NCBI GenBank assembly: GCA_032718475.1
Contig: JAUCBJ010002424.1
Span: 1-49,333, forward strand
Length of the DNA stretch: 49,333 nucleotides
Source of the DNA: Nemertoderma westbladi
Lineage: Eukaryota > Animalia > Xenacoelomorpha
Direction: 5' to 3'
Shown here: in pieces, positions 3,543 to 44,107 of the stretch
How positions within the stretch are numbered: the first letter of the stretch is position 1
Layout: every line of letters starts with the position of its first letter
The notes under the pieces: model-generated
The model's database searches: none
The model's input: only the letters and a program-made list of their open reading frames with translations
Told to the model about the DNA's origin: nothing
Made by a program: the position numbers and the translations under genes

Positions 3543-3647
3543 AAATGGCATATATATAGCATAGTCTAATAATAGGTAGATCTTTCTTACATATGTATGT
3601 TCTGTTCCTATAATCCTGTAATCAAATCGGAGTAAAGAGCTGTATTT

Positions 3648-4400
3648 TTATGGGTGAGGTGTACCGGTGCTGGATTCCATCTCGAAGTTTACTTTCGTTG
3701 CCAGATTGGTTACATCTTTGAAATCGTAAATTGCGATCACCGCTCCTTCTTCTTTAAGCTTAACTACTACGGTGCCATTGCGGGTGTACGCGGAATGGAT
3801 GCGTTTAGCTTTCTTTATGCGAACCACGTTGCGAAGTAACTCCGCGCGGCGCGCAGTTAGATGTTCAGTGACAAATGTGTTTTTGGGAAGATTATCTTTG
3901 TTCTTTAACACAGTGAGACGTTTATTGCGTGAAATGAAACGCACTACGAGTGGCCGAGTAGGTTTAGATGCTTCTTTATCTCCCGAGATTTTCTTCCTTG
4001 GCAGCCGATGATATATATCAATATCGGAATCGCGGATACCTACAGCATTGAAAGCGTCGGATACGTCTTTATCGTTGTCTGGAATGTTATGGAACAGTAG
4101 GTTGTAGCCTCTCGAGTACTGTTCATGGTCGTCAAGTCTTACCTCGATTTCTCGGTATTTATGGGTTAGGTAGTCGACAGATTTCGCTAGGTTGTCCAAG
4201 CGTGGTTTAATTTTGTTAGCTTCCGCATTACTTAATTTAATCGTAGCGATGTCGGCTTTCATGTCTGATATGTCGTTGGATAGTTTCCTGATTAGGTGGC
4301 ACATCTCTTCTTGTTCATCACCGCTGAGCGTGGTATCGCTTTCGAGACTGTTGTAAGTATTGGACTTTGTGATGCTCTGCTTGTTTTTCTTTGGACCCAT
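3648..4400 (-). CDS. LINE ORF1 protein (coiled coil + RRM-like, L1/Transposase_22-like)
   Basis: 250 aa with a coiled-coil segment ending LDDHEQYSRGYNLLFHNIP, then IDIYHRL, RPLVVRF, FVTEHLT and AYTRNGTVVVK, which are typical LINE ORF1 motifs. It lies upstream of ORF2. Confidence 0.88.
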   Translation of the reverse strand: MGPKKNKQSITKSNTYNSLESDTTLSGDEQEEMCHLIRKLSNDISDMKADIATIKLSNAEANKIKPRLDNLAKSVDYLTHKYREIEVRLDDHEQYSRGYNLLFHNIPDNDKDVSDAFNAVGIRDSDIDIYHRLPRKKISGDKEASKPTRPLVVRFISRNKRLTVLKNKDNLPKNTFVTEHLTARRAELLRNVVRIKKAKRIHSAYTRNGTVVVKLKEEGAVIAIYDFKDVTNLATKVNFEMESSTGTPHP

Positions 4401-5669
4401 TTTGATTACCGTAATTTTCGTGAAGAAATGTGATCAAGATAATCGAGATAGAGTTAATTAAGTAGGCTGTATTATTTCTGTATTTGTCACGATGCAGACT
4501 GCTGTATCATAGAAGCACAAAACAGTAGGCCTACATTGCTGTACTGTTGTACTTTTTCAACAAAAAATGCACAACGAGCAACAATCATGCACAACGAGCA
4601 ACAATATTACAGAAACCATATTACAGAAACTCTGATTTGAAACCAGGAACTCAAATTCATAATCACTACCAGTTGACTGTTATTTTTTAAATAAAAGGTC
4701 CGTTCCTTATCGGGCCTCTAGGTCCGTCATCAGTTCACATCTGTAAATTAATTCATTGGGTGGATCACTTTCTATACATCGGTATTTTCAAGTATGTTAC
4801 TTAGCTGGCAGCAGCCTCGTTACTTTTTTGTGATTGATTGATGAAGTCACTCTTTGGAAGAACTTGTGTAATTGACCATGCTGATTTAATTGTTTTGCCA
4901 TACGCCACGTATGTGTACGTCATGATTAAACTTTTTGTTGATGGATTTCTCTGTAAAGGGCTTCGTGTTTCTTCCCTTTCTTCCACATTAACAGTAAATG
5001 ACGAAGTAATTTGGGGAAATAATTTAATTTTTGTAATTTCAGGTAATCGCTTTGGTTTAATGAATATTTAATAATATTGCTACCAGGGGATTATGATTAG
5101 CTTAGATTAAATTTACTGTCACACACCTGACAAGCTCCTATTTATCGTTATGTTTCTGGTGTAAGTTCCACCCATAAACATCTCATAAGTTATTGTATTA
5201 CTCGAATCATCATTACAGAAAAGGTCTTTCGCGCATTGTCTCTATCACTAGATTTCATTTTGAATCTCTCAAATATCGTATCCCCTGTACTGGTTTACAT
5301 TGGACCACTACATCCAACAGTTATCCTTGTATTTGTCAGAATCTTTCTGGAATGGTGTAAAGGTACATATTGTTGATGTAATAAAGCCAAGGCCATCTAA
5401 AGAACAGACCTGGCAACAATGCAGGGCTACTTGAAGGCCTCCAGTTATTTCTGGAAGCCTACTGGAAACAGTGTTTGCTCTAACATAGTAACTTTTATCG
5501 TTTTTGTTGTTGATGCTTTTCGGGTTATACAACACATTTAGACTTTTCATCATCATTTAAAATATAATTTTTACACAATGTTTGAATGGTAATTCGTAAA
5601 GTAACACGAGTTTAGAGACTAGTTGATACACGACGGATACAATCAGTCCTTTGTCACTATCTTAAAATG

Positions 5670-8679: not shown

Positions 8680-10572
8680 TCACGGTAATGCCATTAGGTC
8701 AAGCAGCTGGTTAATCCGTAGGTCTAACCAATCGACCTCTCTAGTTGGCAACTGTAGCAGCCACCCGCGGGGCAGTCTACTGTATCCCGCCTTGCAACCA
8801 GCAACCGCCCCAGCCACCATACAATTCATTCTACTGCTCCCCCCTAAAAGGGCCAATTCTATAAGTAAAGTCTCGAAGTCCCGGTTATCTCTCATAGCAA
8901 CGACAGCGCAAGCTAAAGCTTTAGTTGCCATGGCTTGCTTCCCTGCTTCCCATGGTTGAATGCTGTCGAAATGATGGAAATTAAAGCATTTCATATAATC
9001 GTCGTACATGGCTGGGTTTGGCCCTAATCTCTTCCAACCTATCTCCAACGATTTTTTCAAGACGCCTTCGATGTAGCCTTTCTCCCTGGGGTTACCGCGA
9101 CCTTGTAGCAACATCGCCAACATAGTAGCCATAGCGACGCTGGCGGCACGACAACGGGGTTCACCATGAGTTGTCTGCGACAAACGCGATGCATTGGCAG
9201 AGACCTCGGAAAGCTTGTGAAAGTTCGGAACAGCTAAAGCGACTGCGGCGGAGAATACGAAGTTGCTACAAACGGTGAACTCCTTTCCATTCCAGTTTTT
9301 GAGATCCTGCCAGTAGTTAACGGCGGCGAGATGGGGATCCCGTATGAACTGGGGGTGGGCAATTAGTCGTGGGAGCGCGTCTTCTATCCCTACTCCAACC
9401 GTGTCGCTAAGTTCCGGGTATCCATGAGACATCCAGGTCCGTAGCCTCTTCGCAAAGTCCAACTCGTCGACTACGCCGCCCCATTGGAGCAGCGAGTCGA
9501 GACACACGACCATAATGTCGGTGTGGCAGGTCCACTCACCCGGACTCCATTGCGACCGGTAGTCGTCGCTTATTGCGTTGTTGAAGGTGAGTAAATCCCT
9601 CGGAGTGTAATGGAATTCCGTCTCATCTGTGGTCATTCCCTCGCAGAAGAGCCCAACTGCGTCCCCGATCGCAGCTCCATATAGCAGTCCCACAATCCTG
9701 TCCACTAATTCATCTTGGTTGAGTGACGTGTGTGCGCTGGACACCCGCAGCGGAGTCTTTAACCGGGAGGCGGTGTGCATCTGGAAGGTGGAATCCGAGT
9801 TATTGTAGTCCAGATTTATATTGGGTCCGGTACCGCCACCGATGTTCTCAGTTTCTATGCAGCCTTGAAGAACGCCGCTCTTCACCCGGTGGAACACATT
9901 GAAAGTTCGTGTGAAGTTCATTACGTTTCCATTAGGATTGGCGAATTGTTTACGACAAGAACTCAGATAATCTAAAATATGTTGGGTTCCTTTGTCGGCT
10001 ATATGTTGAGGGGGGTTTTCCAGTTGGTTTCCTGTGGCTAAAATTACTTTCATTTTCGTTTTACCTAAACTTAGCGGAAGCTCGATGAGATTATTGTTAC
10101 TAACATTGAATTTGTTTAAAAATTTGAGTTCTCCTATATTATCTGGAAGATATTCGAGTTGGTTGTTTGATATATCTAGTTTTGCTAATTCTGGTAATGT
10201 AGGCAAAGAATCGGGAAGTCTATCCAGTTTGTTATATGACACATCCAGAACCTCCAAATGGTAGAACAGACAGAAACTCTGGGGTAAAGAATATATGGAG
10301 TTGTGACTGAGGTTGATAGAGACTAGATGGGGAATTCGCATCGGTATCTCTACGGGGATGGAAGTTAAGCTATTGAAGGAAACATTGATTGAAGAATAAA
10401 GCCACACCGAGTCGACCAGTGTCCATGGCAACTGATGCATCGCGGATGGCAACGACTCACCCTTTCTGTGGCGTCGATATTTCTCCGGGCTCACTTTCAC
10501 ACTCAAGTCCAGATCCCGCCGCTCGTTGCCACCGTTTGGCGTAAAGTCTTGCACCTGCATCGCGTTACCCAT
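8680..10572 (-). CDS. Leucine-rich-repeat + ADP-ribosylglycohydrolase (ARH/DraG-fold) fusion protein, predicted catalytically degenerate
   Basis: 630-aa single ORF. It has ~6 LxxLxLxxNxLxxLP repeats capped by NQLENPP. The C-terminal part has ARH hallmarks: DRIVGLLYGAAIGDAVG, GEWT..TD, DFAKRLRTW...G, TTHGEPRC, LALLGG...NCMVAGAVAG...GYSRLPRGWL. Confidence 0.9.
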   Translation of the reverse strand: MGNAMQVQDFTPNGGNERRDLDLSVKVSPEKYRRHRKGESLPSAMHQLPWTLVDSVWLYSSINVSFNSLTSIPVEIPMRIPHLVSINLSHNSIYSLPQSFCLFYHLEVLDVSYNKLDRLPDSLPTLPELAKLDISNNQLEYLPDNIGELKFLNKFNVSNNNLIELPLSLGKTKMKVILATGNQLENPPQHIADKGTQHILDYLSSCRKQFANPNGNVMNFTRTFNVFHRVKSGVLQGCIETENIGGGTGPNINLDYNNSDSTFQMHTASRLKTPLRVSSAHTSLNQDELVDRIVGLLYGAAIGDAVGLFCEGMTTDETEFHYTPRDLLTFNNAISDDYRSQWSPGEWTCHTDIMVVCLDSLLQWGGVVDELDFAKRLRTWMSHGYPELSDTVGVGIEDALPRLIAHPQFIRDPHLAAVNYWQDLKNWNGKEFTVCSNFVFSAAVALAVPNFHKLSEVSANASRLSQTTHGEPRCRAASVAMATMLAMLLQGRGNPREKGYIEGVLKKSLEIGWKRLGPNPAMYDDYMKCFNFHHFDSIQPWEAGKQAMATKALACAVVAMRDNRDFETLLIELALLGGSSRMNCMVAGAVAGCKAGYSRLPRGWLLQLPTREVDWLDLRINQLLDLMALP

Positions 10573-10733
10573 GGCAACACGCAGTTGAAAGAATTAATTA
10601 CTTACTTTTGCGAATCATACCGGTACGTTTAATAATAATAAGCTGAATCAAAATAATATTATATATGATTTATTTATACAAATTATTTATTAAGAATTAA
10701 ATACATTATTGTAACTGTATAGTACGGTCTACT

Positions 10734-11388
10734 TACGGTGGCTGATTGCGGCCAATTATTTCCATTTTTAAAATTATTTTTCACCCGGGTGAAAAACATT
10801 TATCACCCGGGTGAAAAACATTTATCACCCGGGTGAAAAACATTTATCACCCGGGTGAAAAACATCTGAACTCTGAACACATGTAGTTAGTTTCCTTATA
10901 AATAATATCGAAAACTCATTTTGATCCAGATTCACTCTTGGCGAATTAATATCTCGACCAATCTTATTAATCCATTTAGGGAAAGGATCAGGTTACAATG
11001 GCATGTTATTCTAACAAAAACAATAAACAAAAGTCTATAGTTAAACATTTAAATATTTTTCACCCGGGTGATAAATGTTTTTCACCCGGGTGATAAATGT
11101 TTTTCACCCGGGTGATAAAAAGTGATAAATGTTTTTCACCCGGGTGATAAATGTTTTTCACCCGGGTGATGAAAAGTGATAAATGTTTTTCACCCGGGTG
11201 ATAAATGTTTTTCACCCGGGTGATAAATGTTTTTCACACGGGTGATAAATGTTTTTCTCCCGGGTGATAAAAAGTGATAAATGTTTTTCTCCCGGGTGAT
11301 AAATGTTTTTTACCCGCGTGATAAATGTTTTTTACCCGGGTGATAAACAAAAAAAAATGGAAATAATTGGCCGCAATCAGCCACCGTA
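10734..11388. mobile_element. Non-autonomous DNA transposon (IS3EU-like MITE), 655 bp
   Basis: TIRs tacggtggctgattgcggccaattatttccattttt / aaaaatggaaataattggccgcaatcagccaccgta. 6-bp TSD tctact at 10728-10733 and 11389-11394. TAY..RTA termini with a 6-bp TSD match the IS3EU superfamily. Subterminal 22-bp cacccgggtg arrays are present. Confidence 0.8.
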
Positions 11389-11684
11389 TCTACTTCATAA
11401 ATTATATTACTGCCGTTATTAAATATTTAATTTCCAATAATTATTTAATTTAATTTAAAATTATTATTAATTATTAATTAATTATCAACGCAAATTCCAA
11501 TATTATCACGTGTAAGTTAAAGTTAAGTTAAAAGTTAAATGTAATATCGGGTAATATTCAAATATTATCACGTGTTAGGGGCTGTTCACACATTAGGGGC
11601 AGTCACAATAGCGTTCCGATGGACATTTTATTTTTCAAAAGTGTCCGAAACACCGTTGGTTTTCAGAAACACTGAAACACTCAG

Positions 11685-11966
11685 TTGAGGGAAAGGAGCA
11701 GGTTAGGGAGGCAGGCTTTTATAACCAAAACAATATACGGCCACTTTACCAATTGAGGGAAAGGAGCAGGTTACAGAGGTAGGCTTTTATAACCAAAACA
11801 ATAAACGGCAACTTTACCAATTAAGGGAAAGGAGCAGGTTACAGAGGCAGGCTTTTATAACCAAAACAATAAACGGCCACGTTACCAATTGAGGGAAAGG
11901 AGCAAGTTAAAGAGGCAGGCTTTTATAACCAAAACAATAAACGATCAGTTTACCAATTGAGGGAAA
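11685..11966. repeat. 68-bp tandem repeat, ~4 copies
   Basis: ttgagggaaaggagcaggtta...ataaccaaaacaataaacggccactttaccaa begins at 11685, 11753 and onward. Confidence 0.9.
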
Positions 11967-12717
11967 CCATATGGTCAGAAAGTCAGTAACCATATGGTCA
12001 GACAGTCAGTACCGGTACCCCTAGTCGCTCTATAACCCAAAAAATACCGATACTAATTGTAATAAGACATAGGTATTTTATATTCTTAATTTTTCTACAT
12101 AAACAGCCGGTGGAATCCGGACCAAGATTAATTTTTTCATTTATTCATATAAATATCATAAAAAGGGCGTTCAGTGTACTGGCATTGCCGGATCCACCCT
12201 GATGTGAGTAGTAGAGTCTTGAGTTGGGTCTAAGTGTCACAAAGCCGGCCAAGACTCTACTACTGATTTGCACTGCGGAACTGATTGTAGCGACTCATTT
12301 CCCGACCTGTTTATCAACTTGACTCGTTTTTTTTCAATTTTTTTCATTTCAAAATAATTATATATTATTGTCTGATAGTTAAAACTTTATCCATGAATTT
12401 GTAATGTATTTCAATTATTACGAAAAATGATTACCAAAAATACGTTACAAATCATTACAATTTGTAATGAATTATAACGCATATTTTTTTCGTAATAATT
12501 AGTTTAATGGATGTTTATTGAATTGAACAAAATATTTCCGAACATAATAAAGGGCGTTAATAGTAAATTAATTACAATAATTATAAATATTGTAATAATT
12601 GTATTTCATTCACATTATTACATATTATATTTAATTATTTTATCTATAATAGAACTGCGTTTTGTCTTATAAAATTATTTTCGACTATAAAATTTTACTC
12701 AAGCGTTACCCTACTAC

Positions 12718-21843: not shown

Positions 21844-22627
21844 CTTTTTGTAAAATATAACTAGGTACTGGTACTATAGTATCTGTTACGTTTTTGGTTG
21901 TATAGGCCTAATGTATCTCTACAGTAATATCGTTATGTTTATGTAATATCATATCATATCGCATCACAATTGGTGTATAATAATACAATATGTTGTATCA
22001 ACCAGGATATGGTGGCATGTAATAATGAAAATATGTTATCCTTTAAAAGGGATAGATATGGTTAGTTTATTTCAATTATATTTCATTTTCAGTCTTTAAG
22101 CAGGAACTGGCATCGAATCGAATCAAAAGCAATTTTTCGTCTTAGATTTCCCATATATTTTTCGATTCGATTTCGATTCGACTCGGGTAAAAAATTTCGT
22201 CTTCGATTCGATTATTCGACCTTTGAATATTAACTTAATTATTTGTCATTAAATATAGGCCTATATTATAAATTTTATTCTTAAATTGTTACTTTGAATT
22301 GGAACTTCTTAAATTTAATCACAATGGTTGAAAGAGCATCGAAGTAGAAAATGTTTGCAAGTACTGTAATTAGTGCAAAATCAATTCACACCTCAAAAGT
22401 AATTGTAACTTTTTAGTGTTGTGTGCACTGTGTACACCAAAACATAATTCAATATCCAATATTAGTTTATGTAAGAAGTTAAGCGGCTCTCTAATTACGT
22501 AATAAATATTCGGGAACACTAATGGATTTAAAATTGTGTAAGGCAGCATCAGGTGTTGAATACTAGGCCTACAATAATTTTAATTGCAGTAACCATGGAA
22601 GCAATAGAGTAAAATACCATAAATAAT

Positions 22628-22918
22628 ATAGTAACAATGTGTTGGCAAGCTGTATTTTTCGAGGTGTTTGTTATTATACATAGAGAGATATGAGATATTA
22701 ATTTCAAGAAAAAATACGCGATTCCTAAATTTGTACACTACCCGGTTAAAAAGTGCGCATGTGATGGGATTGGTCCTGCAGTTGCGCCAATAAAAGATAA
22801 GTTATTTTCGGTAAAATAAACTTATCATTCGAGGTTAAGACCCCTAGATCCCTTCCTATAATAAATGTATAATAACAAACACCTCGAAAAATACAGCTTG
22901 CCAACACATTGTTACTAT
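22628..22918. repeat. Perfect 54-bp inverted repeat (22628-22681 / 22865-22918) enclosing a direct copy (22683-22872) of 23095-23284
   Basis: atagtaacaatgtgttggc...ttattatacat versus atgtataataac...cattgttactat. The 190-bp block is identical by eye to the block 412 bp downstream. Confidence 0.92.
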
Positions 22919-22987
22919 CAATAATAAAAAATCAGGGGTTAATAAAATTGGCAGCTGGCTTTGAAATTAATACTCCATATCTCAAGA

Positions 22988-23050
22988 ACCTGTGGCCTAG
23001 TGGTTGTAGTCTCGGCTTCCACCTCGAGGTCCCAGGTTCGAATCCGACAC
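22988..23050 (+). pseudogene. tRNA-like head (probably tRNA-Gly-TCC-derived), not a functional tRNA
   Basis: A and B boxes are correctly spaced. The anticodon-like arm CTCGG-CTTCCACC-TCGAG has a non-canonical 8-nt loop, and no acceptor stem pairs. Confidence 0.7.
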
Positions 23051-23091
23051 CACGCTGATGAGACCCAGTAAGGTCGAAACGCGTACGTGGT
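23049..23091 (+). ncRNA. Type I minimal hammerhead ribozyme
   Basis: Stem I ACCACG/CGTGGT, core CTGATGA, stem II GACC-cagtaa-GGTC, GAA, palindromic stem III ACGCGT, and a GUA cleavage triplet at 23083-23085. Confidence 0.9.
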
Positions 23092-23609
23092 TTGGAGAGA
23101 TATGAGATATTAATTTCAAGAAAAAATACGCGATTCCTAAATTTGTACACTACCCGGTTAAAAAGTGCGCATGTGATGGGATTGGTCCTGCAGTTGCGCC
23201 AATAAAAGATAAGTTATTTTCGGTAAAATAAACTTATCATTCGAGGTTAAGACCCCTAGATCCCTTCCTATAATAAATGTATAAATAATATATGTACATT
23301 ATTCCATTAGGGATCAGGGGGTGGGGTGAGTACCCGACAAGAATGTAGCAGAACATGGGTGAGTTTGGTTCCCCAAACACGTCTTTGTAACCTGCTCCTT
23401 TACTAACCTGGTCCTTTAAAAGGCAATGGGACCGAAGGCTCTTTGAGAGCTAACGCGACTTTACCTCTTTGTTTAGTACAGAGGGTCTTTGGTCTTTACT
23501 TTGTACTCACCCAGCAGATCACTACTATTGATTGTATTATAGTTATTGACTAGCATTGGAAGTCCTGAATTTCTATTCATCAAGTTGAAGTTGTGGTATA
23601 TTACAGTAC

Positions 23610-25590: not shown

Positions 25591-26729
25591 ATCCGTCGCA
25601 ATTGCATTTTTGCAGACTGAAGTTATAGACGTCAGTATATCAGAACGAATATCCATTACCTTATATTCGAAGAAACTTAAAAACACATCAGCCAGCCATC
25701 GACTTATCGTCATTATGCGTCGGCAGATTGCTTTTATTATTAACGGCGAATAAAATCGAGACTAGAAACGCAAACATTGAATTTTATTTTATTTTCCACT
25801 ACCAAATCGCGCAGGGCGACATATTTTCCAACTTTATATTTTAATTTAAAATTTTTACTATCAAAGACAAAATGTACAAATATTAATATACCACACGTCT
25901 GATGCTATATCTAATACTTGATAATGTGATTTAAAAGTATTTATGTCCGAAACTCCTTAAGCAATAAAAGTATTTATGTCCACAACTCCTTAAGCAATAA
26001 AAGTTTCCGTCGTGTGAGAAATCTGGCAACATATTTCTGAAAGAAGTCGCGCATCAAAAATTGCACTAATATTCTATATATTAATATAAATACTATGTTA
26101 TAGAATTCCTTTGGTTGCACTTGTGAGGCTGACCCTAAAAGTTGGTCACTGCCCCAAAGTATAGCATCCTAACAAGTGTTCTTTCTTATATTTGACAGCA
26201 TCAGACAGACACAGACATACAGACAGACAAACATGATTCTGACAAACATGAAAACTGACATCGGAAATGAAATCACCGACATGGAAAACCCCCAAAGTGA
26301 AACTTTTATCTAATTATTCTGCTTTTTTATAATTGAGAAACAACAGACAGACAGACATACTTGATTTAGACAAACCCGAAAACTGGCATCGGAAATTAAA
26401 TTACCGACTTGGAAAACTTTTGATACTTTTAGTAAACTATTGTGCTTTTGTTATATTCTACAACCTAAAATTAGAAAAGACGGACAAACTGACAGTCAGG
26501 CACCAAGAATGTAAAGGAGAAACAGCACTGATATAAAATACCGCATGGAATATTCAATGTACATTAAATCGAGGTCCTGTAACTAATTTAGGTAGAATAT
26601 TGTTTAGTTGTTTCCACAGATGTATATAATGCATTCGACTTGTTGCTATGAAATTATATTGTATTATTTCTATTTTTGCATATTTTAGGATATATTCATG
26701 AAACAGACAACTGAGAGTTGATTTGGAAA

Positions 26730-29700
26730 ATGGACCACATAGCACGTCATAATCCTCCCCCGATTCCTCCACGTAAAATTACATTAAAAACCGATGTTTC
26801 CACTATGAGTACAAAGGATGTGGTTACAACTCCTGAGGAATCCGAAGGAGAAAAATCCTATATTAGTGTATGGAACACAACTAGTAAACCGTTACTTCCT
26901 AAACGTCGTCTAAGAAGTCCAAATGCCCAGGCCAGTAGTCCTCCCAGCCATTCACGCAATAGGATTAATAGCTTTGGTATCAGCCCTCAACAATTACCAG
27001 ACAGCCTTGATTTTAGTGGTTATCATGTTATTTCGGTAAAATCAAAATCTGAAGAAGAATTTGCTCGGAATCAAAATAGTGAACCAGATACTTCTTATTT
27101 ATCCAGTAAAGCTGAAGGCTATCACCGTATTGTTCCAGGTGAACAAAAGTCTCCCCCCTATGATAATGTATTTCAAGACAATCTTGATCAGAGCCAATGT
27201 GATGTCCATCAACGTTTTCAACATAGAAGTTGCAGCGAAGACGTTCCTACTAACAGAAGATACTCAACTTTCAAACCTGAACCCAAACCTCGATTATCTG
27301 AAGGAACAATTTCAGATGATTTTAATTCTCTTCAAAATCAACCAGAATTATCATGGTCATTAGAGGCAAATCCTCCATCAATACAGCAAGGAAACAATGA
27401 TGCTAAGGCTGAATATAATGATGATATTATTGATTCTGGTGAATTTAGTGACTCTGGATTTAAACAAAGTCAGTTTTCCCCACCACGTTGGAGCTGTTCC
27501 ACTCCTGACTTGTTGGATGTAGAGGATATGACTACAACAAACTTGAATCGTGACATTTCTAAATCAATTGAGTACCTTTCTCCAGATGAATTAGATTTTA
27601 CTGGAATCAGCATGAGTGACATCCGGCCTCCATTGCCAAAGCGAAAAGAGCCTGCAATGGAAATTAACATTCCTTTTTCATTCAAATCAGCATTAAAAAG
27701 GTCTGATTTGCGACAATCATTGCGTAAAACTCGCTTGTCTGATATGTATTCAAAAGTACAGAAACCATTCAAATTACCACCAAAGTCAAGGGAGATATTT
27801 AAACCATGGGTTAATATATATCAGCCACAGTTTGTTGCTGATACTGCAGCAAAGTCTGGCTTCTGTCAACTCTTGGAACACCAGAAACTCAACACAAACT
27901 CATCAGAAATAGACTCCAGTGATTTAGGGTCTTTATCTGTATCCTATGAAAAACCTCTCGAAATTTCCCAATCAAGTAGTACATATGACCTACTTCAGGA
28001 TTGCGTTACGGGTTTACCAGAAATAAAAGAGGACGAAGTTGCACATCATACACCTGCTATTTCATATCCGAAGGAGAGACCAGATTCCATTTCTTATGAT
28101 CTGAATACCTCTACTACAGAACATTCTATCATTCGGACTATATCAATGTTGCCACAATCCCAACGTCTTGGTAAAAAATCTGGATTGTTATTTATCTTAG
28201 ACAATAAATCTTGGCAGAAGAGATGGGTTACTGTTGATGATAATGAATTGGGTATTTATAACTCAAATGACTACAAGCATATCATAAAGGTGATCCCTGT
28301 CACAGCTATCAGCTTAGTTCGCAATGAGGTTAAGATTACTGATTCAGCTAGACCTAACAGAATATACTTAGAACTTGTTGATGGGAGAGTAATTTCTATG
28401 GCAGCAACAGATAACTTTGAAATGTCTGTCTGGTCTAACATAATTATGAGACATGTGGTTGCAAAAATGAAGTTGCAATCCCCTATCTACAGGTTGGGTG
28501 GATCTATGAGTGACCCTGATAAACAAGGCCATGTTAGAGTGGATGACAAGAAAAGGTATGCAGTGATAAAGGGTTATAGGATGAATTTTTATGAAAATGA
28601 TAATGACTACTTCTTGGCATGCGTATCCATGGACATCAATTTCAAATCTATAATTTATACAGTGAAGCAACTGTCACCAACCAAATTACAATGCATTTGC
28701 CATTCAGGGAGCTTCATTATAACAGGGGAAGATGAATCAGATACTGATAGTTGGAAGTCTGCTATAGAAGAATCTATTTATTGTGGTCTTTCTGATGATT
28801 CATACTTAAAGGCAGTTCAAGAAAATGTGACCAACACATATTGTGCAGATTGTAGGAATAACAAAGCAGTTTGGGCATCTGTTAATATATGTGTTACCCT
28901 CTGTGATCACTGTGCCGGCCTTCATAGAAAATTTAGCATTTCTAAAATTCATTCTCTGAGAATGGATAAAAAGATTTGGCAGCCGAATGTGATAGCATTA
29001 TTTAAACATTGTGGTAATGGGTTTCTAAATGAAATATGGGAGGTTAATGTACCAGATAGTGCAGTAATTTCACCAGACTGCAGTGATGAACAACGACATG
29101 ACTTTGTACATCAAAAGTATACTTTGAGGCAATTTATGGACATTCCAGAACAGTACTCTGATAATGAGTATCTAAATTTCATGTTAAATGATAGCGTTAA
29201 AAACGATAAAGATCTTAAAAAAACAATGCAGTTTGTATTTTGTGGTGCAGACATTCTTGCTGTAGATAATGATGGCTTGACTCCTTTAGATGTTGCGAGA
29301 AAGTATGGACAGACTCTCACTGAAACATTTCTTTCACTGAATGGTGGTGCTGGAAATGGCTCTAAATTTATATCCATCAACTGCCTCTTAGAAAGCTTAG
29401 AAGAATGGAATAACTCAGTAAGATTACATGCTGAAGGAGTTGTTTACCTAAAAGAAGGACGGCATATAAATAAAAGGTGGGCAATTTTAAAGCACAATTT
29501 ATTTGAAATGTTTAATGAAAAGGGGGCACCAAATTCAGCTATACGCCTTTGTTTAGTTATGAGGGATCATCAAAGAGACTGCGAAGGAGAGTGTGTGGCT
29601 ATCATTTCTGGTTCATCCAATGATCACAACCCACCATCCTATCTTCTCGATAAGTATTCCATCGAGATGTTGAACAAAAATGGGAAGTCATTGATATTTA

Positions 29701-31562
29701 TTGTTGAAGATGCTCAGGAGAATTTTAATTGGATGGAAAATTTGAGTAAATCCGCCACTTCTCCCAGATCATGGGGGAAAGAGGATGACATGGTATTGGC
29801 AAAACCTATTATCCATGCTGGTTTCTTACAGTGGAAAATTATCAACAGCCCTCACTGGCGCAAAGATTGGTTTATATTAAGAGGAAAATCATTGTTCTAT
29901 TTTGATACTGATAAAAAAGCTTATGAAGAAATTGATCTTAGAAAAGTCACTGGAACCTCCCCACGAAATAGATCGGAAATTATTAGCGATGGTACCCATT
30001 TTACGATGATGCAATATAACAAGGTATTCGAAATGAAGGGAATGTGTGCACGAGACACTTGTGCGTGGTTTGATAGCATAGTAATTGCCTCCACAGTCCA
30101 GGGTAGTGTCTTCCATGAACAACAACTTACCATGGCCGATATTCCAGTTTATATTGATGTTTGCATTAACCATATATGCATGAATGGTATTCAAAGTGAA
30201 GGTATATATAGGCAGGCTGGTGTTAAGTCCAAAATAAACAGGCTGAAAGAGCAATTGTTAGGTGATGCCAGACGTGTTGCCATAGACCAATCGGAATACA
30301 TGATCAACGATGTTTGTGGAGCTTTAAAACAATACTTCAGAGAGCTACCTGAGGCTGTAACAACTAATGCATTATATGAACAGTGGCTGGTTGTTGCAGG
30401 TTACAGTGATGACTATATGGAAGATAAAATGGGTTGGTATCACTACCTAATGAATGAGTTGCAACTGGCTAAACCATTAAACTACAATGTTTTACGTTTT
30501 CTAATTGGTCATTTAAAAGATGTGGCCCGTTTTAAATTGCAAAACAAAATGGCTATTTACAATTTAGCTACTGTTTTTGCTCCTTCTCTAATTTTTCACA
30601 GTGATGACTCAAACACTCACACTAGTACGGGGGATAAGTTATCATCGCCAGATTTAGCAGGAACTGAAATGAAAATACGTTGCATAGAATTTTTAATCAC
30701 TCATTATAAAGAGGTTTTCAAAGTCTCTGATGAAGATATCAAGAAGGAGAATGATCTTTTAGATGCGATGATACGAATGAGCACCGCATGGTTACCACAG
30801 TTCAATTCACGTGAGGAATCATTGTTTCAAGTAGAGATTCTCCTATTTGCTATCAATGGGAAGCAAACCAGCGTTCACATCAACAGTAGATCTACAGCAA
30901 ACGAAGTTCTTAAAATTATTGCGAAGCGAGAGAAATTAAACTTTGATGATATTTGTCTCCATGAAAACTTGAATGGCGGGGATATATCTCGACCTTTGAC
31001 CAACTCAGAGAATGTTCTCAATGTGCTCACGGAATGGAGATTTCTTCCCACCTCTAATAACTTTCTTATTGTCAAAGGAAACGATATTTTTGCCACCATA
31101 AATGCAAAGTTTAAGGGGGTATATGGTATAGATACAACAATGCAATATTGTGGGAGTAAGGATGCCAAAAAGTTTGTACTAGTCCACACGTGTATTGAAG
31201 ACGAGTTAATTAAATGTTATCGATTCAAAGATTTCAGTAAACCTCCACTAGCAACATGGCCCTTGGACTCAGTACTGGTATATATTTACTCGGTGGCAGA
31301 GAAACGCATGAAACTCCCAAAAGGCTACAAACATTGCATAGCTTTGCACACAATTAACAATGACAACTTCAGTTTATTGGCATCGAAGACAGATGAAGAC
31401 CCGTTTATCTTAATGGCAGCGATTCATAACACCAAAGCCTATGGAATGAATGCGCCTTTCACAACTCCTGCGGCATCCACCCATCCGATCTCCATAGGTA
31501 GAATATCGGAAAGTGACGACAGTCAGATGGGTGACGCACAACTCAACCAATCATCGTTGTGA
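26730..31562 (+). CDS. ARAP: Arf-GAP with Rho-GAP, ankyrin repeat and PH domains (ARAP / centaurin-delta family; RhoGAP15B-like), 1610 aa
   Basis: Domains in order: PH (KKSGLL..SWQKRWV), second PH, ArfGAP zinc finger CADC-x16-CDHCAGLHR, ankyrin (GADILAVDNDGLTPLDVA), two more PH domains, RhoGAP (EGIYRQAG, ALKQYFRELP, NKMAIYNLATVFAPSL), RA-like domain. The first ATG after the in-frame TGA (26712-26714) is at 26730; the track start at 26718 is TTG. Confidence 0.95.
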   Translation: MDHIARHNPPPIPPRKITLKTDVSTMSTKDVVTTPEESEGEKSYISVWNTTSKPLLPKRRLRSPNAQASSPPSHSRNRINSFGISPQQLPDSLDFSGYHVISVKSKSEEEFARNQNSEPDTSYLSSKAEGYHRIVPGEQKSPPYDNVFQDNLDQSQCDVHQRFQHRSCSEDVPTNRRYSTFKPEPKPRLSEGTISDDFNSLQNQPELSWSLEANPPSIQQGNNDAKAEYNDDIIDSGEFSDSGFKQSQFSPPRWSCSTPDLLDVEDMTTTNLNRDISKSIEYLSPDELDFTGISMSDIRPPLPKRKEPAMEINIPFSFKSALKRSDLRQSLRKTRLSDMYSKVQKPFKLPPKSREIFKPWVNIYQPQFVADTAAKSGFCQLLEHQKLNTNSSEIDSSDLGSLSVSYEKPLEISQSSSTYDLLQDCVTGLPEIKEDEVAHHTPAISYPKERPDSISYDLNTSTTEHSIIRTISMLPQSQRLGKKSGLLFILDNKSWQKRWVTVDDNELGIYNSNDYKHIIKVIPVTAISLVRNEVKITDSARPNRIYLELVDGRVISMAATDNFEMSVWSNIIMRHVVAKMKLQSPIYRLGGSMSDPDKQGHVRVDDKKRYAVIKGYRMNFYENDNDYFLACVSMDINFKSIIYTVKQLSPTKLQCICHSGSFIITGEDESDTDSWKSAIEESIYCGLSDDSYLKAVQENVTNTYCADCRNNKAVWASVNICVTLCDHCAGLHRKFSISKIHSLRMDKKIWQPNVIALFKHCGNGFLNEIWEVNVPDSAVISPDCSDEQRHDFVHQKYTLRQFMDIPEQYSDNEYLNFMLNDSVKNDKDLKKTMQFVFCGADILAVDNDGLTPLDVARKYGQTLTETFLSLNGGAGNGSKFISINCLLESLEEWNNSVRLHAEGVVYLKEGRHINKRWAILKHNLFEMFNEKGAPNSAIRLCLVMRDHQRDCEGECVAIISGSSNDHNPPSYLLDKYSIEMLNKNGKSLIFIVEDAQENFNWMENLSKSATSPRSWGKEDDMVLAKPIIHAGFLQWKIINSPHWRKDWFILRGKSLFYFDTDKKAYEEIDLRKVTGTSPRNRSEIISDGTHFTMMQYNKVFEMKGMCARDTCAWFDSIVIASTVQGSVFHEQQLTMADIPVYIDVCINHICMNGIQSEGIYRQAGVKSKINRLKEQLLGDARRVAIDQSEYMINDVCGALKQYFRELPEAVTTNALYEQWLVVAGYSDDYMEDKMGWYHYLMNELQLAKPLNYNVLRFLIGHLKDVARFKLQNKMAIYNLATVFAPSLIFHSDDSNTHTSTGDKLSSPDLAGTEMKIRCIEFLITHYKEVFKVSDEDIKKENDLLDAMIRMSTAWLPQFNSREESLFQVEILLFAINGKQTSVHINSRSTANEVLKIIAKREKLNFDDICLHENLNGGDISRPLTNSENVLNVLTEWRFLPTSNNFLIVKGNDIFATINAKFKGVYGIDTTMQYCGSKDAKKFVLVHTCIEDELIKCYRFKDFSKPPLATWPLDSVLVYIYSVAEKRMKLPKGYKHCIALHTINNDNFSLLASKTDEDPFILMAAIHNTKAYGMNAPFTTPAASTHPISIGRISESDDSQMGDAQLNQSSL

Positions 31563-36621: not shown

Positions 36622-37522
36622 ATATACACAATAACCCTTAATACAAGAACCATTTTTAGGGGGTCGGAGACCCCACCCCCCTATTTTTTTTCAAATTTCA
36701 ATAAAATGCTAAGAAATTTGGTATGATGATAGATCGACACCTTTTCTTACTGGTGGCCTGGCCGGATTTTTTAATTTATGAGCTATTTCGATACAACAGG
36801 CCGTTAAAAATCGTCTATTTCGCAATATTTAGCCACCTCCGTCGGCATTATTTTTCGTCTTTGGAATGAGATCTAGATATCATTAGATCCACCTTCATCT
36901 GCAGATTCCGATTCCGAATCTGAAACTCGTTGTAAATTTCACAAAGAACTTCCGTAGATATTATCCAAATACTAAGGTGTAAATTTTGTCACGTAAATCG
37001 CTATAATTCTAATGTTTTTTTTACTAAATTCTAGAATATTAATTATGGGTGATGAAAAAACAAGATGGAGAGTTTTAAACGCTCAGCTTAATAATAACTA
37101 ATATTCTAGAATAAAGACAACAAAACATCAGAATTGTAGCGATTTACGTTTCTAAATTTACACATTAGTATTTTGATAATATCTTAACCAATTTTTGGTT
37201 AAACTTAAAATGGTTTTCAGATTTGGAATCTACAGACGAAGGCGCTTCGAATGATATCTAGATTACATTTCAAAGACGTAAAATAAAGTCTACGGAGGTC
37301 GTTAAACATTGCTAAATAGACATTTTTTAAGGACTTGTATGGAAATAACTGAGAAATTGGAAAATCCGGCCAGGCCACCACTAAAGAAAAGGTGTCGATC
37401 TATCATCATACCAAATTTCGTAGCATTTTATTGCAATTTGAAAAAAATTATGGGGGGGGGGGGGGGGGGGGGGCTCCGACTCCCCTAAAAATGGTTGTTG
37501 TATTAAGGGTTATAGTGTATAT
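36622..37522. mobile_element. ~900-bp foldback (whole-length palindromic) MITE
   Basis: atatacacaataacccttaatacaagaaccatttttagggg... versus ...cccctaaaaatggttgttgtattaagggttatagtgtatat. The arms remain complementary to the centre near 37070, with TA at the ends. Confidence 0.88.
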
Positions 37523-38009
37523 TTATGTTTTTAATTAATAAACACATTAAATGAATATTTAGACCACGACTATGTGACACGACGTGTAATCATTATATGT
37601 TCTAGAACTTGGATTTAGTTATACTATTTTGCTGTTCTCTTTCTGTGACTGTTTTTCCTGTACACCCGTGAGTGTTTTTTCATTAGCTAAATTTCCAGGC
37701 GGAATCATATGGTTGGGTAATTCAGAAGTAAGCTCAACTCCCTCAAATTTCATATCCGTGATATACATGGCAAGCGAGAAGTCTTCCTGTGTCCAAAAAC
37801 AATTAATATGTTTCAGTTAAATAGTAAGTAATATTATCCGAATAAGAAGTACTTTTTCACTAATATAAATTGACTGAAATGAAACTAAAATAATCGTATA
37901 ATTGTGTTAACACACCTTATTTAGGAAGTTATCTTTATCATAATCAGCTAACTTCCATAAACCATGTCCTGGAATACACCATGACCCGTAATACAGTGTC
38001 ATTTTCTGC

Positions 38010-38910
38010 TGACACGGACCCCCCCCCCCCCCCCCCCCCAAATTTTTCTTCAAATCTTTATCATATTGCTTGAAATTTGAAACACAACTACTGTAGTTCA
38101 ACTCACCGTGGTTGTTACCATGAAGCCGGAATTTTCTATTTCGCCTTTAAATTTTATTTATAAGCGTTTTAAAAAAGTGTCTTTTGCTAAATCGCACCCT
38201 CTGTATCATTGCCATTCTTCACATTAGTCGTAATTTTTTCACATCAATAGAAAGCTTGCGTTGAAAGGATTCCAAATATCTAGCAATAACTGAATTTCAT
38301 TGAGAAACAGCTGAGAAATAGGCGTTCAAAGATTGCAAGAATTATTGTTCGCTGCAAGCCATTTATTCTATTTAATAAATACACAAAATTCTAGAACGTG
38401 TTATTTATTTTATGAGTTGGTTGGCAATAGCGGTATGCCTATACAATATCTATATTGCGTAGCTAATCATACATAAACATGTGACAATATCCTAATTTTT
38501 TATTAAAAATAAAAAAAAAATCATACATAAACAAAATGTTCCAGAATATTGTGTATTTATTAAATAGAATAAATGGCCTGCAGTGAACAATAACTCTTGC
38601 AATCTTTGAACGCATATCTCAGCTGTTTCTCAACGAAATTTAGACATTGTTACATATTTGGAATCCTTGCAACGCAAGCTTTCTATTGATGTGAAAAAAT
38701 TACGACTAAAGTGAAGAATGGCAATGATACAGAGGGTGCGATTTCGCAAAAGACACTTTTTTAAAACGCTTATAAATAAAATTTAAAGGCGAAATAGAAA
38801 ATTCCGGTTTCATGGTAACAACCACGGTGAGTTGAACTAGTTGTGTTTCAAATTTCAAGCAATATGATAAAGATTTTAAGAAAAATTTGGGGGGGGGGGG
38901 ATCCGTGTCA
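38010..38910. mobile_element. ~900-bp foldback MITE with highly similar arms
   Basis: tgacacgga-polyC-aaatttttcttcaaatctttatcatattgcttgaaatttgaaacacaac... versus ...gttgtgtttcaaatttcaagcaatatgataaagattttaagaaaaattt-polyG-atccgtgtca. Confidence 0.9.
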
Positions 38911-38912
38911 TC

Positions 38913-38913
<1 letters not shown>

Positions 38914-38943
<30 letters not shown>

Positions 38944-39790
38944 ATAAAAATGTTTCTACAAAACGCAATGAGATTGCATGAAATTTGAAACAGAGTTAGT
39001 TTCATCTCCCTCCTCCTCCGTGGGTGAACCAGACTTTTTATTTTCGCTTTCAATCTTTAGCTACAAGTGTTTAAAAAAAAGGTGTCGATATTGTACTGTA
39101 CCACCAGTCGTACTGCAGTTATTCTTCAACATTATAGTGATGTTGGTACTAGTGGAAAGCTGGCCGATTTCAAATATGTAAAAATATTTGAATTTGGTTG
39201 GGAAACAACTGAGATATGGGTATTCGAATTGCATGTATATTCTTCCGCTGTTTTTTCTATATAATAATTAAACAATGTTCTAGGATATTTTGCTTATGTA
39301 GGAATATCCAATGGATTTTCCATATCCATATACTAGTATTATCATGTAGGCATTGCATTGTTGCCAAGCTACTTATGAGATAAACTAAATGTTCCAGAAT
39401 GTTATGCATTTATTAAATGCAGCCGAAGCAAATACATGCAACTTTCGAATGCCCATATCTGAACTATTTCTCAACCAAATTCAAATATTTTTATATATTT
39501 GGAATCCTTGTACGGTCAGCTTTCTACTAGTACCAAATCACTATGATGTTGAAGAATAATTGCAGTACGACTGGTGCAATATCGACGGAGACCCTTTTTT
39601 TAAACGCTTGTACCTAAAGAACGAACGCAAAAATAAAAATTCTGGCTCACCCACTAAGGAGGAGTGAGGTGAAACTATCTCTGTTTCAAATTTCATGCAA
39701 TCTCATTAAGATTTGTAGAAAAATGTAGGGCGGGGGGGGGGGGGGGTGCGTGGGGGAGGGGGCATATACCTGAGAAACGACCCTATATAC
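38914..39790. mobile_element. ~850-bp foldback MITE, related to and directly abutting the previous one
   Basis: aatgagattgcatgaaatttgaaacagag... versus ...ctctgtttcaaatttcatgcaatctcatt, with poly-C/poly-G subtermini. Confidence 0.85.
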
Positions 39791-40024: not shown

Positions 40025-40319
40025 CAATCAGTCATCAGCTGACGGCAGCCAGCTGATCGGTAGGTTTCGCCCCTCAACTGAAGGCATTCTCAGGAGGCCA
40101 AGCCAGGAAATTGAGAGAGAGATTCCCAAAGGGAGACGGAACAGGTAACGAAATGAAGATCTGTCTGTAGGCCTACTGTAACTAACCACTAACCACTTTC
40201 GTTACCTGTTCCGTCCCACTTTGGGAATCTCTCTCTACATTCCCTGGCTTGGTCTCCTGAGATTGCCTTCAGTTGCGGGGCGAAACCTCAGCTGGCTGCC
40301 GTCAGCTGATCAGTGATTG
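40025..40319. mobile_element. ~295-bp hairpin element
   Basis: atcagctgacggcagccagctga...ggaacaggtaacgaaa versus tttcgttacctgttcc...tcagctggctgccgtcagctgat. Confidence 0.88.
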
Positions 40320-41896: not shown

Positions 41897-44107
41897 CTAT
41901 CCTATTTTCTGGTGACCATCTATCCAGATATCTTTGGGTGTTGATGTCCCCTCCGTATGATGCCGCTGTCGCTGTAGATTAATGTTGAAGAAGCCCCACC
42001 AGAACTCCTGGGCCTTCATCTTTTGCTGTGTCATGACTCCGACGTCGGCCCACTCCTCGAAAATGCGAAACTTCTCCTCGTCCTCGATCCAGACACACTG
42101 GCGCTCAAAGTGCCCCCTAAACTTGCACTTCAAACACCTGTGGTGCAACCTTGGGCACGCGCCCATCCTGTGCGTAGACTCGCGGCAGTAAAGACATGCC
42201 GTCCCCTTCTGGTAACGGTATAGACAGTTCTTTTGCTGATGGGTTAGTCTCCCACAGTAATCGCAACCGTCTATCAGTGTCTCTCGCCCTAAGTCGTCCT
42301 TGGCTCCACGTAGCCTCCTGGGTCTGTGGAGCCGCTGGTAGGTAAACATCTCGACGTTGTCCTCCTTACCCATATCGATGTCCTCCTCCTCCCTCGGCAT
42401 CGTTTCTCCAAACACTACCCGTGGTGCCACTGCCGGTTGCTCGCCCAGTCGGATCGTGTTCGCCGCAAAATCCATATCCGGCTCCCCGTGCTCCCAGGTC
42501 CGTTTGCCGGGTGCGTCCCAGAAGGCTCTCGCCCTGCTGGCTGTCACCACTCTCCCATCCACACAGTCCGTGTCCGAGTGGCTGATCCTCTCTATCGGTG
42601 GCATCACCCCGAACTCGTCCCCCTCCTCATTCCCTGCTGGGAGCGGATCCAAACCCGGGATCCCGGTTGATCCACTGTGTCCCTTTCCGGCCTGGTATTC
42701 ACCCATGGCCTTCCACTCATCTACCTCCCTCAGTCTCTTCCTTCCGAAGTCGCCCTCAGACCCCGCAGGCATCGGCATTCCTTGCAGACCCGATGTAGAC
42801 TGTATCGGTGTCTCTTCCATCCAACCCAGTTCGTCCCCCAGCCGAAACTCGCCCGAGGTCTCCGATCCCCACCTCAACTCGTCCAAGTCTTCGGCTTCGA
42901 ACTCGTACTCCCATCCCCTTATATCTGCCTCTCTGCCCGCTGCCTCCCTTCTCTCTCTCCTGGCGACTTCCTCTAGTCTCCTCTCCTCAACTCTATCCGC
43001 CTCCTGTTTCTCCCATTGCTTGTACGGTGTGTCTACCTCTCTGTCCACCAGGTTTCGGGTATTGTAATATACCGACTCGCCCTTCAGCCCTGGGTGGTCT
43101 ACAAGACCTTCTAGGGCCACTTTAAAGGCTCTCCTGTGGCTCAGAGGTGATCCCGATAGTAGAAACGCCATCGGTTGAAGGTTTAAAACATGAATAGGTT
43201 TAGAAAACCTATCATTATCCAGTCCTCATGTAGGATATATCTCTTCTGATATATCCTTATTGCTCCCTTCCGGAAGTGATATAGCTCCTCCTTCCCTGGT
43301 CTCGCTCCCCATTTGAGTGAGTTTGCAAGTTCCGCTCCGTATTCCTCCCGGAACTTGTTCCACTCCATCGGTTTGTGGCAGACGAGTCCCACCAGTTGGC
43401 CCATCGCCACGGCTCTGTAATGTCCCGTGTTGTCCACCAATCCCAATCTGTCTGGTTTCGTCATAGCCATGTAGACTACCTGCATGTCCAGAGATTCGGG
43501 GTGCTCGTTCCAATAATTCTGTCCGCGTCGTCGCGTATTGCCGATCCCACCTTGACCGTAGACTTCAACCTCACTAGCTCCTGCACCGCGCTCGTCAACC
43601 GGTTTAACTTTGGCCCACTCCTCTTCCCGTATGTCCCTAGGATGAATAGAAAGATATCTCCATTCAGCGCCGCTAAGTGCAGCAATATGGTTCTAGCCGA
43701 TCCTCCCGACCGTCATCCTTCACAGTCCCTTCGTCGTGTATTCACCATGTATCCACCCCTCTCCACGGATTCTACAAACCTCCTCCACTCTTTCTTCGGT
43801 GGTTCCCTTGGAACCTAGCCTCATCCCCCTTTACAACGTAGTGAAGATGCTCGTCGATCGCGTTGTCCAATGACGGAGTCCCATAGGTCCCGACCAGTCG
43901 TCGCTCGTGCATCTCCCTAAACTGATCCTGTAGATGTGGCTTTGTGGATGACGCTTTGTGGCCCTTCAGGAGTCGTTTGTAGTATCCCTTCGTCTTGTTC
44001 TCCGGATGCCTCAGCGTGAAATCCACTAGTAAGTCCTTTCCGCTCTTCTCCGATTTCCTCTTCTTCACTAGTTTCTCCCCCATCACGAATCCACTCACTC
44101 TCACCAA
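41897..44107 (-). pseudogene. Frameshifted accessory ORF (track pieces 43772-44107, 43476-43685, 43183-43485, 41897-43171) ending in three CCHC zinc knuckles
   Basis: Abutting same-strand ORFs. CDYCGRLTHQQKNC, CLYCRESTHRMGAC and CLKCKFRGHFERQC all fit C-x2-C-x4-H-x4-C. Confidence 0.7.

What the first reader, a model, noticed from the sequence alone, without database searches (positions are those of the whole stretch)
22988..23284. tRNA-derived Pol III head fused directly to a complete hammerhead ribozyme (SINE-retrozyme hybrid)
Seen: an A box (22993-23003) and B box (23035-23045) in a tRNA-Gly-like head. Three nt later comes a full type I hammerhead, ACCACG-CTGATGA-GACC(cagtaa)GGTC-GAA-ACGCGT-A-CGTGGT, with predicted cleavage after GUA at 23085. 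A ~190-bp body follows, with its own stem-loop (gataagttatttt-cggt-aaaataaacttatc). Known: minimal type I hammerheads with a palindromic stem III are typical of Penelope-like elements and non-LTR retrozymes, and usually cleave as dimers. Inference: this is a Pol III-transcribed non-autonomous retroelement whose RNA cuts off its own tRNA promoter head, probably mobilised by a Penelope-like RT. This may be an undescribed family.
Basis: partly seen in the sequence, partly recalled or inferred. Interest (0 to 1): 0.88.

Follow-up and report, generated by a model that had tools for sequence, protein, structure and literature searches.

The report
Pol III hammerhead retrozyme, Penelope-style insertion
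This is one insertion of a very abundant 412-base animal repeat that carries a tRNA-type promoter directly ahead of a hammerhead ribozyme sequence, the layout already known from blood-fluke Sm-alpha elements; its ends suggest it was likely pasted in by a Penelope retrotransposon, possibly from a single RNA unit copied one and a half times.

Summary
The A box, B box and type I hammerhead are real and far beyond chance. It is a 412-bp circularly permuted monomer, present here as 1.46 tandem copies (22683-23284), with a 54-bp inverted piece on the left and a 5-12-bp target duplication in AT-rich DNA. That is the insertion anatomy published for Penelope-like elements (partial tandem, inverted 5' copy, one-sided tail). 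Public contigs show a young, very high-copy family, and a diverged relative keeps B box, ribozyme and 3' end while the body drifts. Promoter-then-hammerhead in tandem units is the known Schistosoma Sm-alpha/Sj-alpha layout, and animal retrozymes were recently tied to Penelope elements, so this is a new member of a known kind. One detail stands out: both 190-bp body copies share four rare A-to-G changes within 27 nt, which suggests one RNA unit, possibly edited, was reverse-transcribed twice. Cleavage, Pol III transcription, circular RNA and the partner element were not shown; no genome or RNA run was available.

The parts
22619..22630 (+). Left copy of the target-site duplication (12-mer; last 3 nt also match the element's inverted end)
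   Evidence: Identical to 23281-23292; 0.12% of random AT-rich 26-nt pairs share 12 nt or more
22628..22681 (-). Inverted, 5'-truncated piece of the element (last 8 nt of body plus the 46-nt tail), head-to-head with the direct copy, one unmatched A at 22682
   Evidence: 100% reverse complement of 22865-22918
22683..22872 (+). Upstream 5'-truncated copy of the body (pLTR-like direct repeat); starts 9 nt 3' of where the hammerhead cut would fall
   Evidence: 190 of 190 nt identical to 23095-23284, including the rare variants
22873..22918 (+). 46-nt tail: family sequence that follows the body; absent at the right end of this insertion, present in the inverted piece
   Evidence: Loose ends at 23284 continue with this sequence in 28 X1 and 24 X2 contigs; mixed-flank 3' ends at 22863, 22870 and 22925 in X2
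22919..22960 (+). Variable linker that joins the tail to the promoter region
   Evidence: Bridged by X1 record 22905-23023 and X4 record 17; depth dips here and variant forms exist
22961..22983 (+). Arm of a predicted 23-bp helix with 23097-23119 that encloses promoter and ribozyme
   Evidence: 87% complementary, duplex -24 kcal/mol; in the monomer fold; the relative's match starts at 22963
22986..23045 (+). tRNA-derived type 2 Pol III promoter region: A box 22993-23003, B box 23035-23045; truncated right after the B box; isotype unsettled (Gly or Glu)
   Evidence: no tRNA call; TTC anticodon in relative; transcription itself not tested
23044..23095 (+). Type I hammerhead: core and 6-bp stem I at 23049-23091, stem I extendable to 23044-23095 using the end of the B box; stem III is the palindrome 23079-23084; predicted cut between 23085 and 23086
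   Evidence: stem I and II pair probabilities 0.76-1.0 in the circular monomer; double-hammerhead cofold -38.9 against 2 x -15.3 kcal/mol
23095..23284 (+). Body, with helix arm 23097-23119, four rare G-for-A sites (23167, 23184, 23190, 23193), hairpin 23208-23238 holding the unit's only T4 run, and the 3' end of the insertion
23281..23292 (+). Right copy of the target-site duplication (first 4 nt also match the element's end)
   Evidence: family depth falls from about 6e5 to about 2e2 beyond 23295 in X1

Best explanation
The locus is a 1.46-unit insertion of a high-copy 412-bp repeat with a tRNA-type promoter followed by a type I hammerhead, likely transcribed by Pol III from tandem copies, predicted to cut itself into monomers as a dimeric ribozyme, and likely reverse-transcribed and inserted by a Penelope-like RT/endonuclease. 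Shown: unit length, permuted order, high copy number, promoter-ribozyme linkage, conservation of B box, ribozyme and 3' end in a relative, and the insertion anatomy. Inferred steps: (1) Pol III starts near 22986 and must read through the single T4 run to make multimers; (2) two palindromic stems III pair and cut after 23085, giving monomers that start with the body and end with promoter plus ribozyme, and may be circularised by a host ligase; (3) a Penelope-like enzyme nicks AT-rich DNA and primes from both target ends at two internal sites of the RNA, 23284 (right end, 4-nt microhomology) and the equivalent of 22918 (left end, 3-nt microhomology), giving the long direct copy and the short inverted copy joined head-to-head; (4) the long cDNA went round one monomer 1.46 times (circle, or end-to-end jump on a cut monomer), which rebuilds a promoter upstream of a body and duplicates that molecule's private changes. 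Confidence about 0.75 for class and mobiliser, about 0.45 for step 4.
For: Unit and anatomy. Family: 4244 X1, 1812 X2 and 156 X5 contigs laid on 22876-23500; summed depth about 5e5-8e5 over promoter, ribozyme and body in X1 against 17-45 for long single-locus contigs, so roughly 1e4 copies (the tool warns that depth is no copy number); 608 of 4244 and 540 of 1812 contigs lie only partly on it. A 441-nt contig in X4 wraps once round the unit with a 30-nt end overlap, as a tandem or a circle would give. Relative in X7: one 309-nt contig matches 23029-23108 with 1 difference in 80 nt, then 162 unaligned nt, then 22851-22891; a second has 9 listed differences in 22963-23028 (Fisher p 0.005). Monomer folds better than all shuffles (z -3.5 linear; z -3.9 circular). 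Published PLE anatomy: partial tandem, inverted 5' copy, one-sided tail (PMC8557442 passages); two direct pLTRs plus inverted pLTR, 9-bp TSD, 31-bp tail (PMC3846280 passages); both strands cut and extended, two internal RT starts define the tail, AT-rich targets (PMC11167929). Step 4: G at the four sites has under 0.2% of family depth in X1 and X2, is in both body copies, and the 6 of 27 words that X1 and X2 lack match the 5.6 expected if this haplotype is absent from them.
Against: No autonomous Penelope partner was found: no genome is held, and the body's 41-codon open frame hit only 4 translated tandem repeats among 1.84e9 proteins and no Pfam family. Only one ribozyme lies at this locus, so it fails Li et al.'s definition of an active retrozyme; no contig piece shows two complete ribozymes in a row. 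The T4 run at 23217-23220 could end Pol III transcripts before the inferred RT start sites; scarcity of T runs is not significant (p 0.53). The tail is 46 nt, longer than the published 30-40. Depth dips to 95k-178k at 22928-22951 in X1, so many copies may lack the linker and be solo units. No step in depth and no listed cluster of 5' ends at the cut site (14 of 398 loose-end rows shown). For the anole PLE, ribozyme cleavage was not needed for insertion in vitro and no reads began at the cut site; 8 of 9 Xenopus retrozyme dimers did not cleave. For editing: 3 of 4 sites are predicted unpaired and none has the 3' A that invertebrate ADARs prefer.
Confidence: 0.72

Rival explanations
1. Same element and mobiliser, but the template was a linear multimer from a tandem source locus, cut at the upstream ribozyme only; the shared rare variants were already in the source DNA or were spread by gene conversion after insertion. 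No circle and no double copying.
For: The upstream copy stops 9 nt from the predicted cut, as a ribozyme-made 5' end would give; uncleaved RNA is the main substrate of the anole PLE in vitro; the window's individual is probably not among the runs laid, so a rare source locus cannot be excluded.
Against: Needs a source in which four clustered A-to-G changes were already homogenised (4 of 7 private differences, p 0.02; within 27 nt, p 0.001; both post hoc), which only moves the double-copying event one generation back or needs conversion.
Confidence: 0.35
2. Ordinary tRNA-derived SINE moved by a LINE (for example the APE-type LINE in this window), which happens to carry a hammerhead.
For: A and B boxes, high copy number, target duplication; a LINE RT is present at 3-3002.
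Against: Promoter is internal to the unit, no poly(A) or simple-repeat 3' tail at 23284, family sequence continues past 23284 and round to the promoter, inverted piece carries a tail that the direct end lacks.
Confidence: 0.07
3. Satellite-like DNA repeat spread by DNA-level mechanisms; promoter and ribozyme are relics.
For: Tandem junction and wrap-round contig fit a satellite; decayed copies with a mutated core exist (X5 record 20); no RNA evidence was obtainable.
Against: Target duplication and inverted piece at this locus; hundreds of contigs with foreign flanks; 79 of 80 nt kept over B box and ribozyme in a relative whose body no longer aligns.
Confidence: 0.08

Closest known systems
Schistosoma Sm-alpha / Sj-alpha SINE-like elements
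   Same: A and B boxes followed by a type I hammerhead, tandem units, promoter left at the 3' end of cut monomers, more than 10,000 copies, tRNA-derived (PMC6765202, PMC2576457, PMC2770079 passages)
   Different: Sm-alpha derives from tRNA-Gln, this one has Gly/Glu-type anticodons; stem III here is a 6-nt palindrome that predicts dimer action, whereas the Sm-alpha ribozyme has a longer stem III (recalled); sequence homology not tested; the passages I read do not describe Penelope-type ends for Sm-alpha
Metazoan non-LTR retrozymes (Cervera and de la Pena 2020; Li, Clavereau and Pollet 2026 preprint)
   Same: 150-450-bp low-GC tandem unit with a canonical type I hammerhead, target duplication longer than 4 bp, self-paired monomer, proposed PLE mobilisation
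   Different: Carries its own tRNA-type promoter, which the passages read do not report; one ribozyme only at this locus; circular RNA not shown
Penelope-like elements and their non-autonomous derivatives (Adineta Pen2a, anole PAc, Chlamydomonas MRC1)
   Same: Partial tandem, head-to-head inverted 5' copy, one-sided tail, short TSD, AT-rich target, hammerhead about 200 nt upstream of the 3' ends
   Different: No ORF; Pol III boxes in place of the internal region; canonical rather than minimal ribozyme; tail 46 nt; no partner identified

Membership tests
Type I hammerhead ribozyme | Conserved core with stems I-III, ends in stem I | tested here: met
Type I hammerhead ribozyme | Rfam gathering score of a hammerhead family | tested here: not met
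   No hit at gathering; HH9 26.6 of 52 bits; reflects the very short stem III
Type I hammerhead ribozyme | Self-cleavage | not testable with these tools
   Needs an in vitro assay
Non-LTR retrozyme | Tandem-prone unit of 150-450 bp, GC under 45-50%, with type I HHR | tested here: met
   412 bp, 164 of 412 G+C; wrap-round contig
Non-LTR retrozyme | [quoted passage not shown] 'active') | tested here: inconclusive
   One HHR at this locus; short-read contigs collapse tandems
Non-LTR retrozyme | TSD longer than 4 bp | tested here: met
   5-12 bp
Non-LTR retrozyme | No PBS or PPT | not tested
   Not searched for
Non-LTR retrozyme | Expressed as unit-length linear and circular RNA | not testable with these tools
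   Only contigs were served
Sm-alpha/Sj-alpha | A and B boxes directly 5' of the hammerhead, linked across copies | tested here: met
Sm-alpha/Sj-alpha | Sequence homology to Sm-alpha | not testable with these tools
   No Sm-alpha sequence was served by a tool; so 'works like', not 'is'
Non-autonomous Penelope-like element | Partial tandem forming direct pLTR-like repeats | tested here: met
   190-bp direct repeats
Non-autonomous Penelope-like element | Adjacent inverted 5'-truncated copy, head-to-head | tested here: met
   22628-22681
Non-autonomous Penelope-like element | 30-40-bp tail at one end only; two clusters of 3' ends | tested here: inconclusive
   One-sided tail is present but 46 nt; clusters at 22863/22870 and 22925 rest on 21 X2 contigs from a cut table
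Non-autonomous Penelope-like element | Homology to the pLTR or 3' end of an autonomous PLE in the same genome | not testable with these tools
   No genome held; peptide search negative
Classical tRNA SINE | tRNA head at the 5' end of the unit | tested here: not met
   Family sequence lies upstream of the head at similar depth
Classical tRNA SINE | Poly(A), simple-repeat or LINE-derived 3' tail | tested here: inconclusive
   No poly(A) at 23284; no match to the window's LINE, whose 3' end is outside the window

The most novel reading that the evidence does not exclude
A Penelope-driven 'SINE' that arose independently of Sm-alpha, and whose copy here is a molecular fossil of the mechanism: an A-to-I-edited circular RNA monomer copied 1.46 times by rolling-circle reverse transcription, primed from both target ends at the two Penelope tail sites. 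With some 1e4 young copies, the family would let one count, from a genome assembly alone, how often retrozyme tandems come from one circular template.
Probability: 0.3. Interest if true: 0.72.

Novelty: new member of a known kind. Interest (0 to 1): 0.45.

Why it matters
Whether animal retrozymes are mobilised by Penelope enzymes, and whether circular RNA is the real template, are open: the 2026 preprint rests on co-occurrence and pLTR similarity in frogs, and the one in vitro PLE study found ribozyme cleavage dispensable. This insertion shows the full Penelope signature on a protein-free element with its own Pol III promoter, and its duplicated private variants give a simple genome-wide test of single-template copying. 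The promoter-ribozyme layout itself has been known since Sm-alpha, so the surprise is moderate.

Tried and rejected
Expression: no RNA holder listed; X4 is only a guessed RNA run of another organism label and also holds a neighbouring repeat at low depth, so I do not use it as evidence of transcription or of circular RNA. Empty-site allele not tested: both read-laying runs went to the unit itself. B box + hammerhead pattern in viral (1 locus) and metagenome contigs (27 loci): 0 of 28 belong to this family. Head against 52 prokaryotic or phage tRNAs from those loci: best scores Arg, Ser, Glu, no isotype call. Body as a Penelope ORF relic: ATG lies in the ribozyme core as in the anole element, but the frame stops after 15 codons, and the next 41 codons gave only artefact hits. 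A 1831-nt X5 contig with promoter and ribozyme was considered as a partner and dropped: three core positions are mutated. T-run depletion not significant. Bacterial promoter scan irrelevant. Earlier findings of the scan: nothing. Host: an animal with no close annotated relative (best 40% identity, echinoderm and brachiopod proteins); not pursued further. Ferbeyre 1998 and Lunse 2017 were not held and are cited second-hand. Searches for a published Penelope-mobilised tRNA SINE or Pol III retrozyme other than Sm-alpha and for edited Penelope copies listed none by title or abstract; Repbase, Dfam and subscription journals were not searchable, and the preprint's supplements were not seen.

Full report
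Observation. A structure-aware scan finds this one hammerhead in 49 kb and none of equal quality in 200 shuffles; the A+B pattern occurs once and in none of 300 shuffles. Rfam gives HH9 at E 4.9e-05 but below gathering. ARAGORN and Rfam do not call the head a tRNA: it stops right after the B box. The ribozyme has a 6-bp stem I, a 4-bp stem II and a 6-nt palindromic stem III, which Cervera and de la Pena (PMC4209133, passages) call the canonical metazoan type that needs a second copy. Two copies cofold as a double hammerhead, 8 kcal/mol better than two monomers.

The unit is larger and permuted. The 190-bp body is repeated without a mismatch 412 bp upstream, and 54 bp left of that are the reverse complement of 22865-22918. 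Laying public contigs shows that 22876-23284 is all one family: 4244, 1812, 2 and 156 contigs from runs X1, X2, X4 and X5 were laid on 22876-23500; summed depth in X1 is about 5e5-8e5 over the promoter, ribozyme and body and about 2e2 just beyond 23295. Against 17-45 for long single-locus contigs this is roughly 1e4 copies, a rough figure since the tool warns against reading depth as copy number. Contigs that pass 23284 continue with 22873 onward (28 in X1, 24 in X2), others bridge tail, linker and promoter, and one 441-nt contig in X4 goes once round the unit with a 30-nt overlap. Depth dips in the linker (22928-22951), from variants, from solo copies without it, or both. Most X1 contigs are 95% or more alike (3006 of 4244), so the family is young.

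Conservation. A sediment metagenome (X7, 3 contigs laid) holds a diverged relative in the same circular order: 79 of 80 nt identical over B box, ribozyme and start of body, 162 nt that do not align, then a match to 22851-22891; two further contigs cover 22963-23058 with 12-13 differences, of which the listed ones lie inside the tRNA-like part (9 of 66 against 1 of 80, p 0.005). The promoter-ribozyme link therefore predates the present burst, the tRNA fold is not kept, and the anticodon reads TTC there. No covariation in the ribozyme stems could be scored, since they hardly vary. The monomer folds better than all 100 linear and all 60 circular shuffles, mainly through a 23-bp helix (22961-22983 with 23097-23119) that can form only in RNA spanning the tandem junction or a circle, not in a transcript that starts at the head and stops in the body.

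Insertion anatomy. A 12-mer flanks the whole structure (22619-22630, 23281-23292; 0.12% by chance among AT-rich pairs), with 3 and 4 nt shared with the element's ends. Inside it lie an inverted piece with a 46-nt tail, a truncated direct copy and a full unit without tail. This is a miniature of Adineta Pen2a (two direct pLTRs, adjacent inverted pLTR, 9-bp TSD, optional tail; PMC3846280, passages) and of the general scheme in Craig et al. (PMC8557442, passages). Frangieh et al. (PMC11167929, parts 1-2 of 4) showed that a PLE protein cuts and extends both strands of AT-rich DNA and starts reverse transcription at two internal RNA sites that bound the tail. The two 3' ends here (23284 and the equivalent of 22918) fit that, and X2 contigs with mixed flanks end at 22863 (5), 22870 (7) and 22925 (9), from a table that shows 14 of 398 rows. 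The partner enzyme was not found.

One template copied twice? The window's monomer differs from the family majority at 7 listed places; 4 are G for A within 27 nt (23167-23193), each under 0.2% of depth in X1 and X2, and all 4 are in both body copies. X1 and X2 lack 6 of 27 sampled words, as expected (5.6) if they lack exactly this haplotype. Post hoc odds: 0.02 for the type of change, 0.001 for the clustering. The 5' neighbours are U, U, U, A, consistent with the G depletion of ADAR sites, but none has the 3' A preferred in invertebrates (PMC5625713, passages) and 3 of 4 sites are predicted unpaired, so editing is a guess. Whatever the chemistry, changes made in RNA would be duplicated only if one unit was copied twice. 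The upstream copy also stops 9 nt from the predicted cut, which fits a ribozyme-made 5' end or a stall at stem I. A rare tandem source or gene conversion remains possible.

Comparison. Schistosoma Sm-alpha and Sj-alpha are tRNA-derived, carry boxes A and B followed by a hammerhead, occur as tandems, and leave the promoter at the 3' end of cut monomers (PMC6765202, PMC2576457, PMC2770079, passages). Non-LTR retrozymes are 150-450-bp tandem units with type I hammerheads, expressed as circles (PMC7229834, passages), and are argued to be non-autonomous PLEs (bioRxiv 10.64898/2026.07.22.740005, parts 1-3 of 5; supplements not seen). The element works like these. It is not a classical SINE, since the head is internal. 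Homology to Sm-alpha could not be tested. The host is an animal whose neighbouring gene is at most 40% identical to annotated proteins. My paper searches (listings only, apart from the papers named) showed no other Pol III retrozyme, but repeat libraries were not searchable.

Verdict. Real feature, boundaries and reading corrected. New member of a known kind, with unusually clear Penelope-type ends and a testable hint of single-template copying. Interest 0.45.

Noticed in passing
L001-L028 (e.g. L011 1437-1610, L018 1450-1630, L005 347-553, L007 1027-1343): Metagenome and viral contigs in which a tRNA gene (mostly Glu-TTC, with encoded CCA) is followed within a few bases by a type I hammerhead; 16 of 28 loci close as type I in my script, many with a 50-66-nt stem III that Rfam gathering misses; in L005 and L007 the ribozyme sits between tRNA genes of a cluster. 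Several share a small phage-like ORF. Possibly a hammerhead counterpart of theta ribozymes (search listing only). Unrelated in sequence to the window's element.
   Followed up: partly
window 23364-23497: A second high-copy repeat 80 bp to the right (depth about 1e5 in X1), with short matches to the repeats at 10967-11028 and 11677-12021.
   Followed up: no
window 8680-10593 and 26715-31562: Long uninterrupted ORFs for an LRR plus ADP-ribosylglycohydrolase protein (637 codons) and an ARAP-type ArfGAP/RhoGAP/PH protein (1615 codons): apparently intronless genes in a repeat-rich animal genome.
   Followed up: partly
window 3-4433: LINE with ORF1 and an endonuclease-RT ORF2 running off the window's start.
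   Followed up: no
window 41897-49229: Broken LTR retrotransposon remains, BEL/Pao-like by recalled motifs; integrase zinc finger found.
   Followed up: no
window 36671-39746, 40062-40288, 10767-11350: Several long inverted-repeat (MITE- or foldback-like) elements, and minisatellites of 16, 22, 37, 43 and 48 bp elsewhere.
   Followed up: no
run X5, record 20, on window 23010-23118: A decayed copy with three core changes inside a 1831-nt contig of depth 401, i.e. nested in another multicopy repeat.
   Followed up: no
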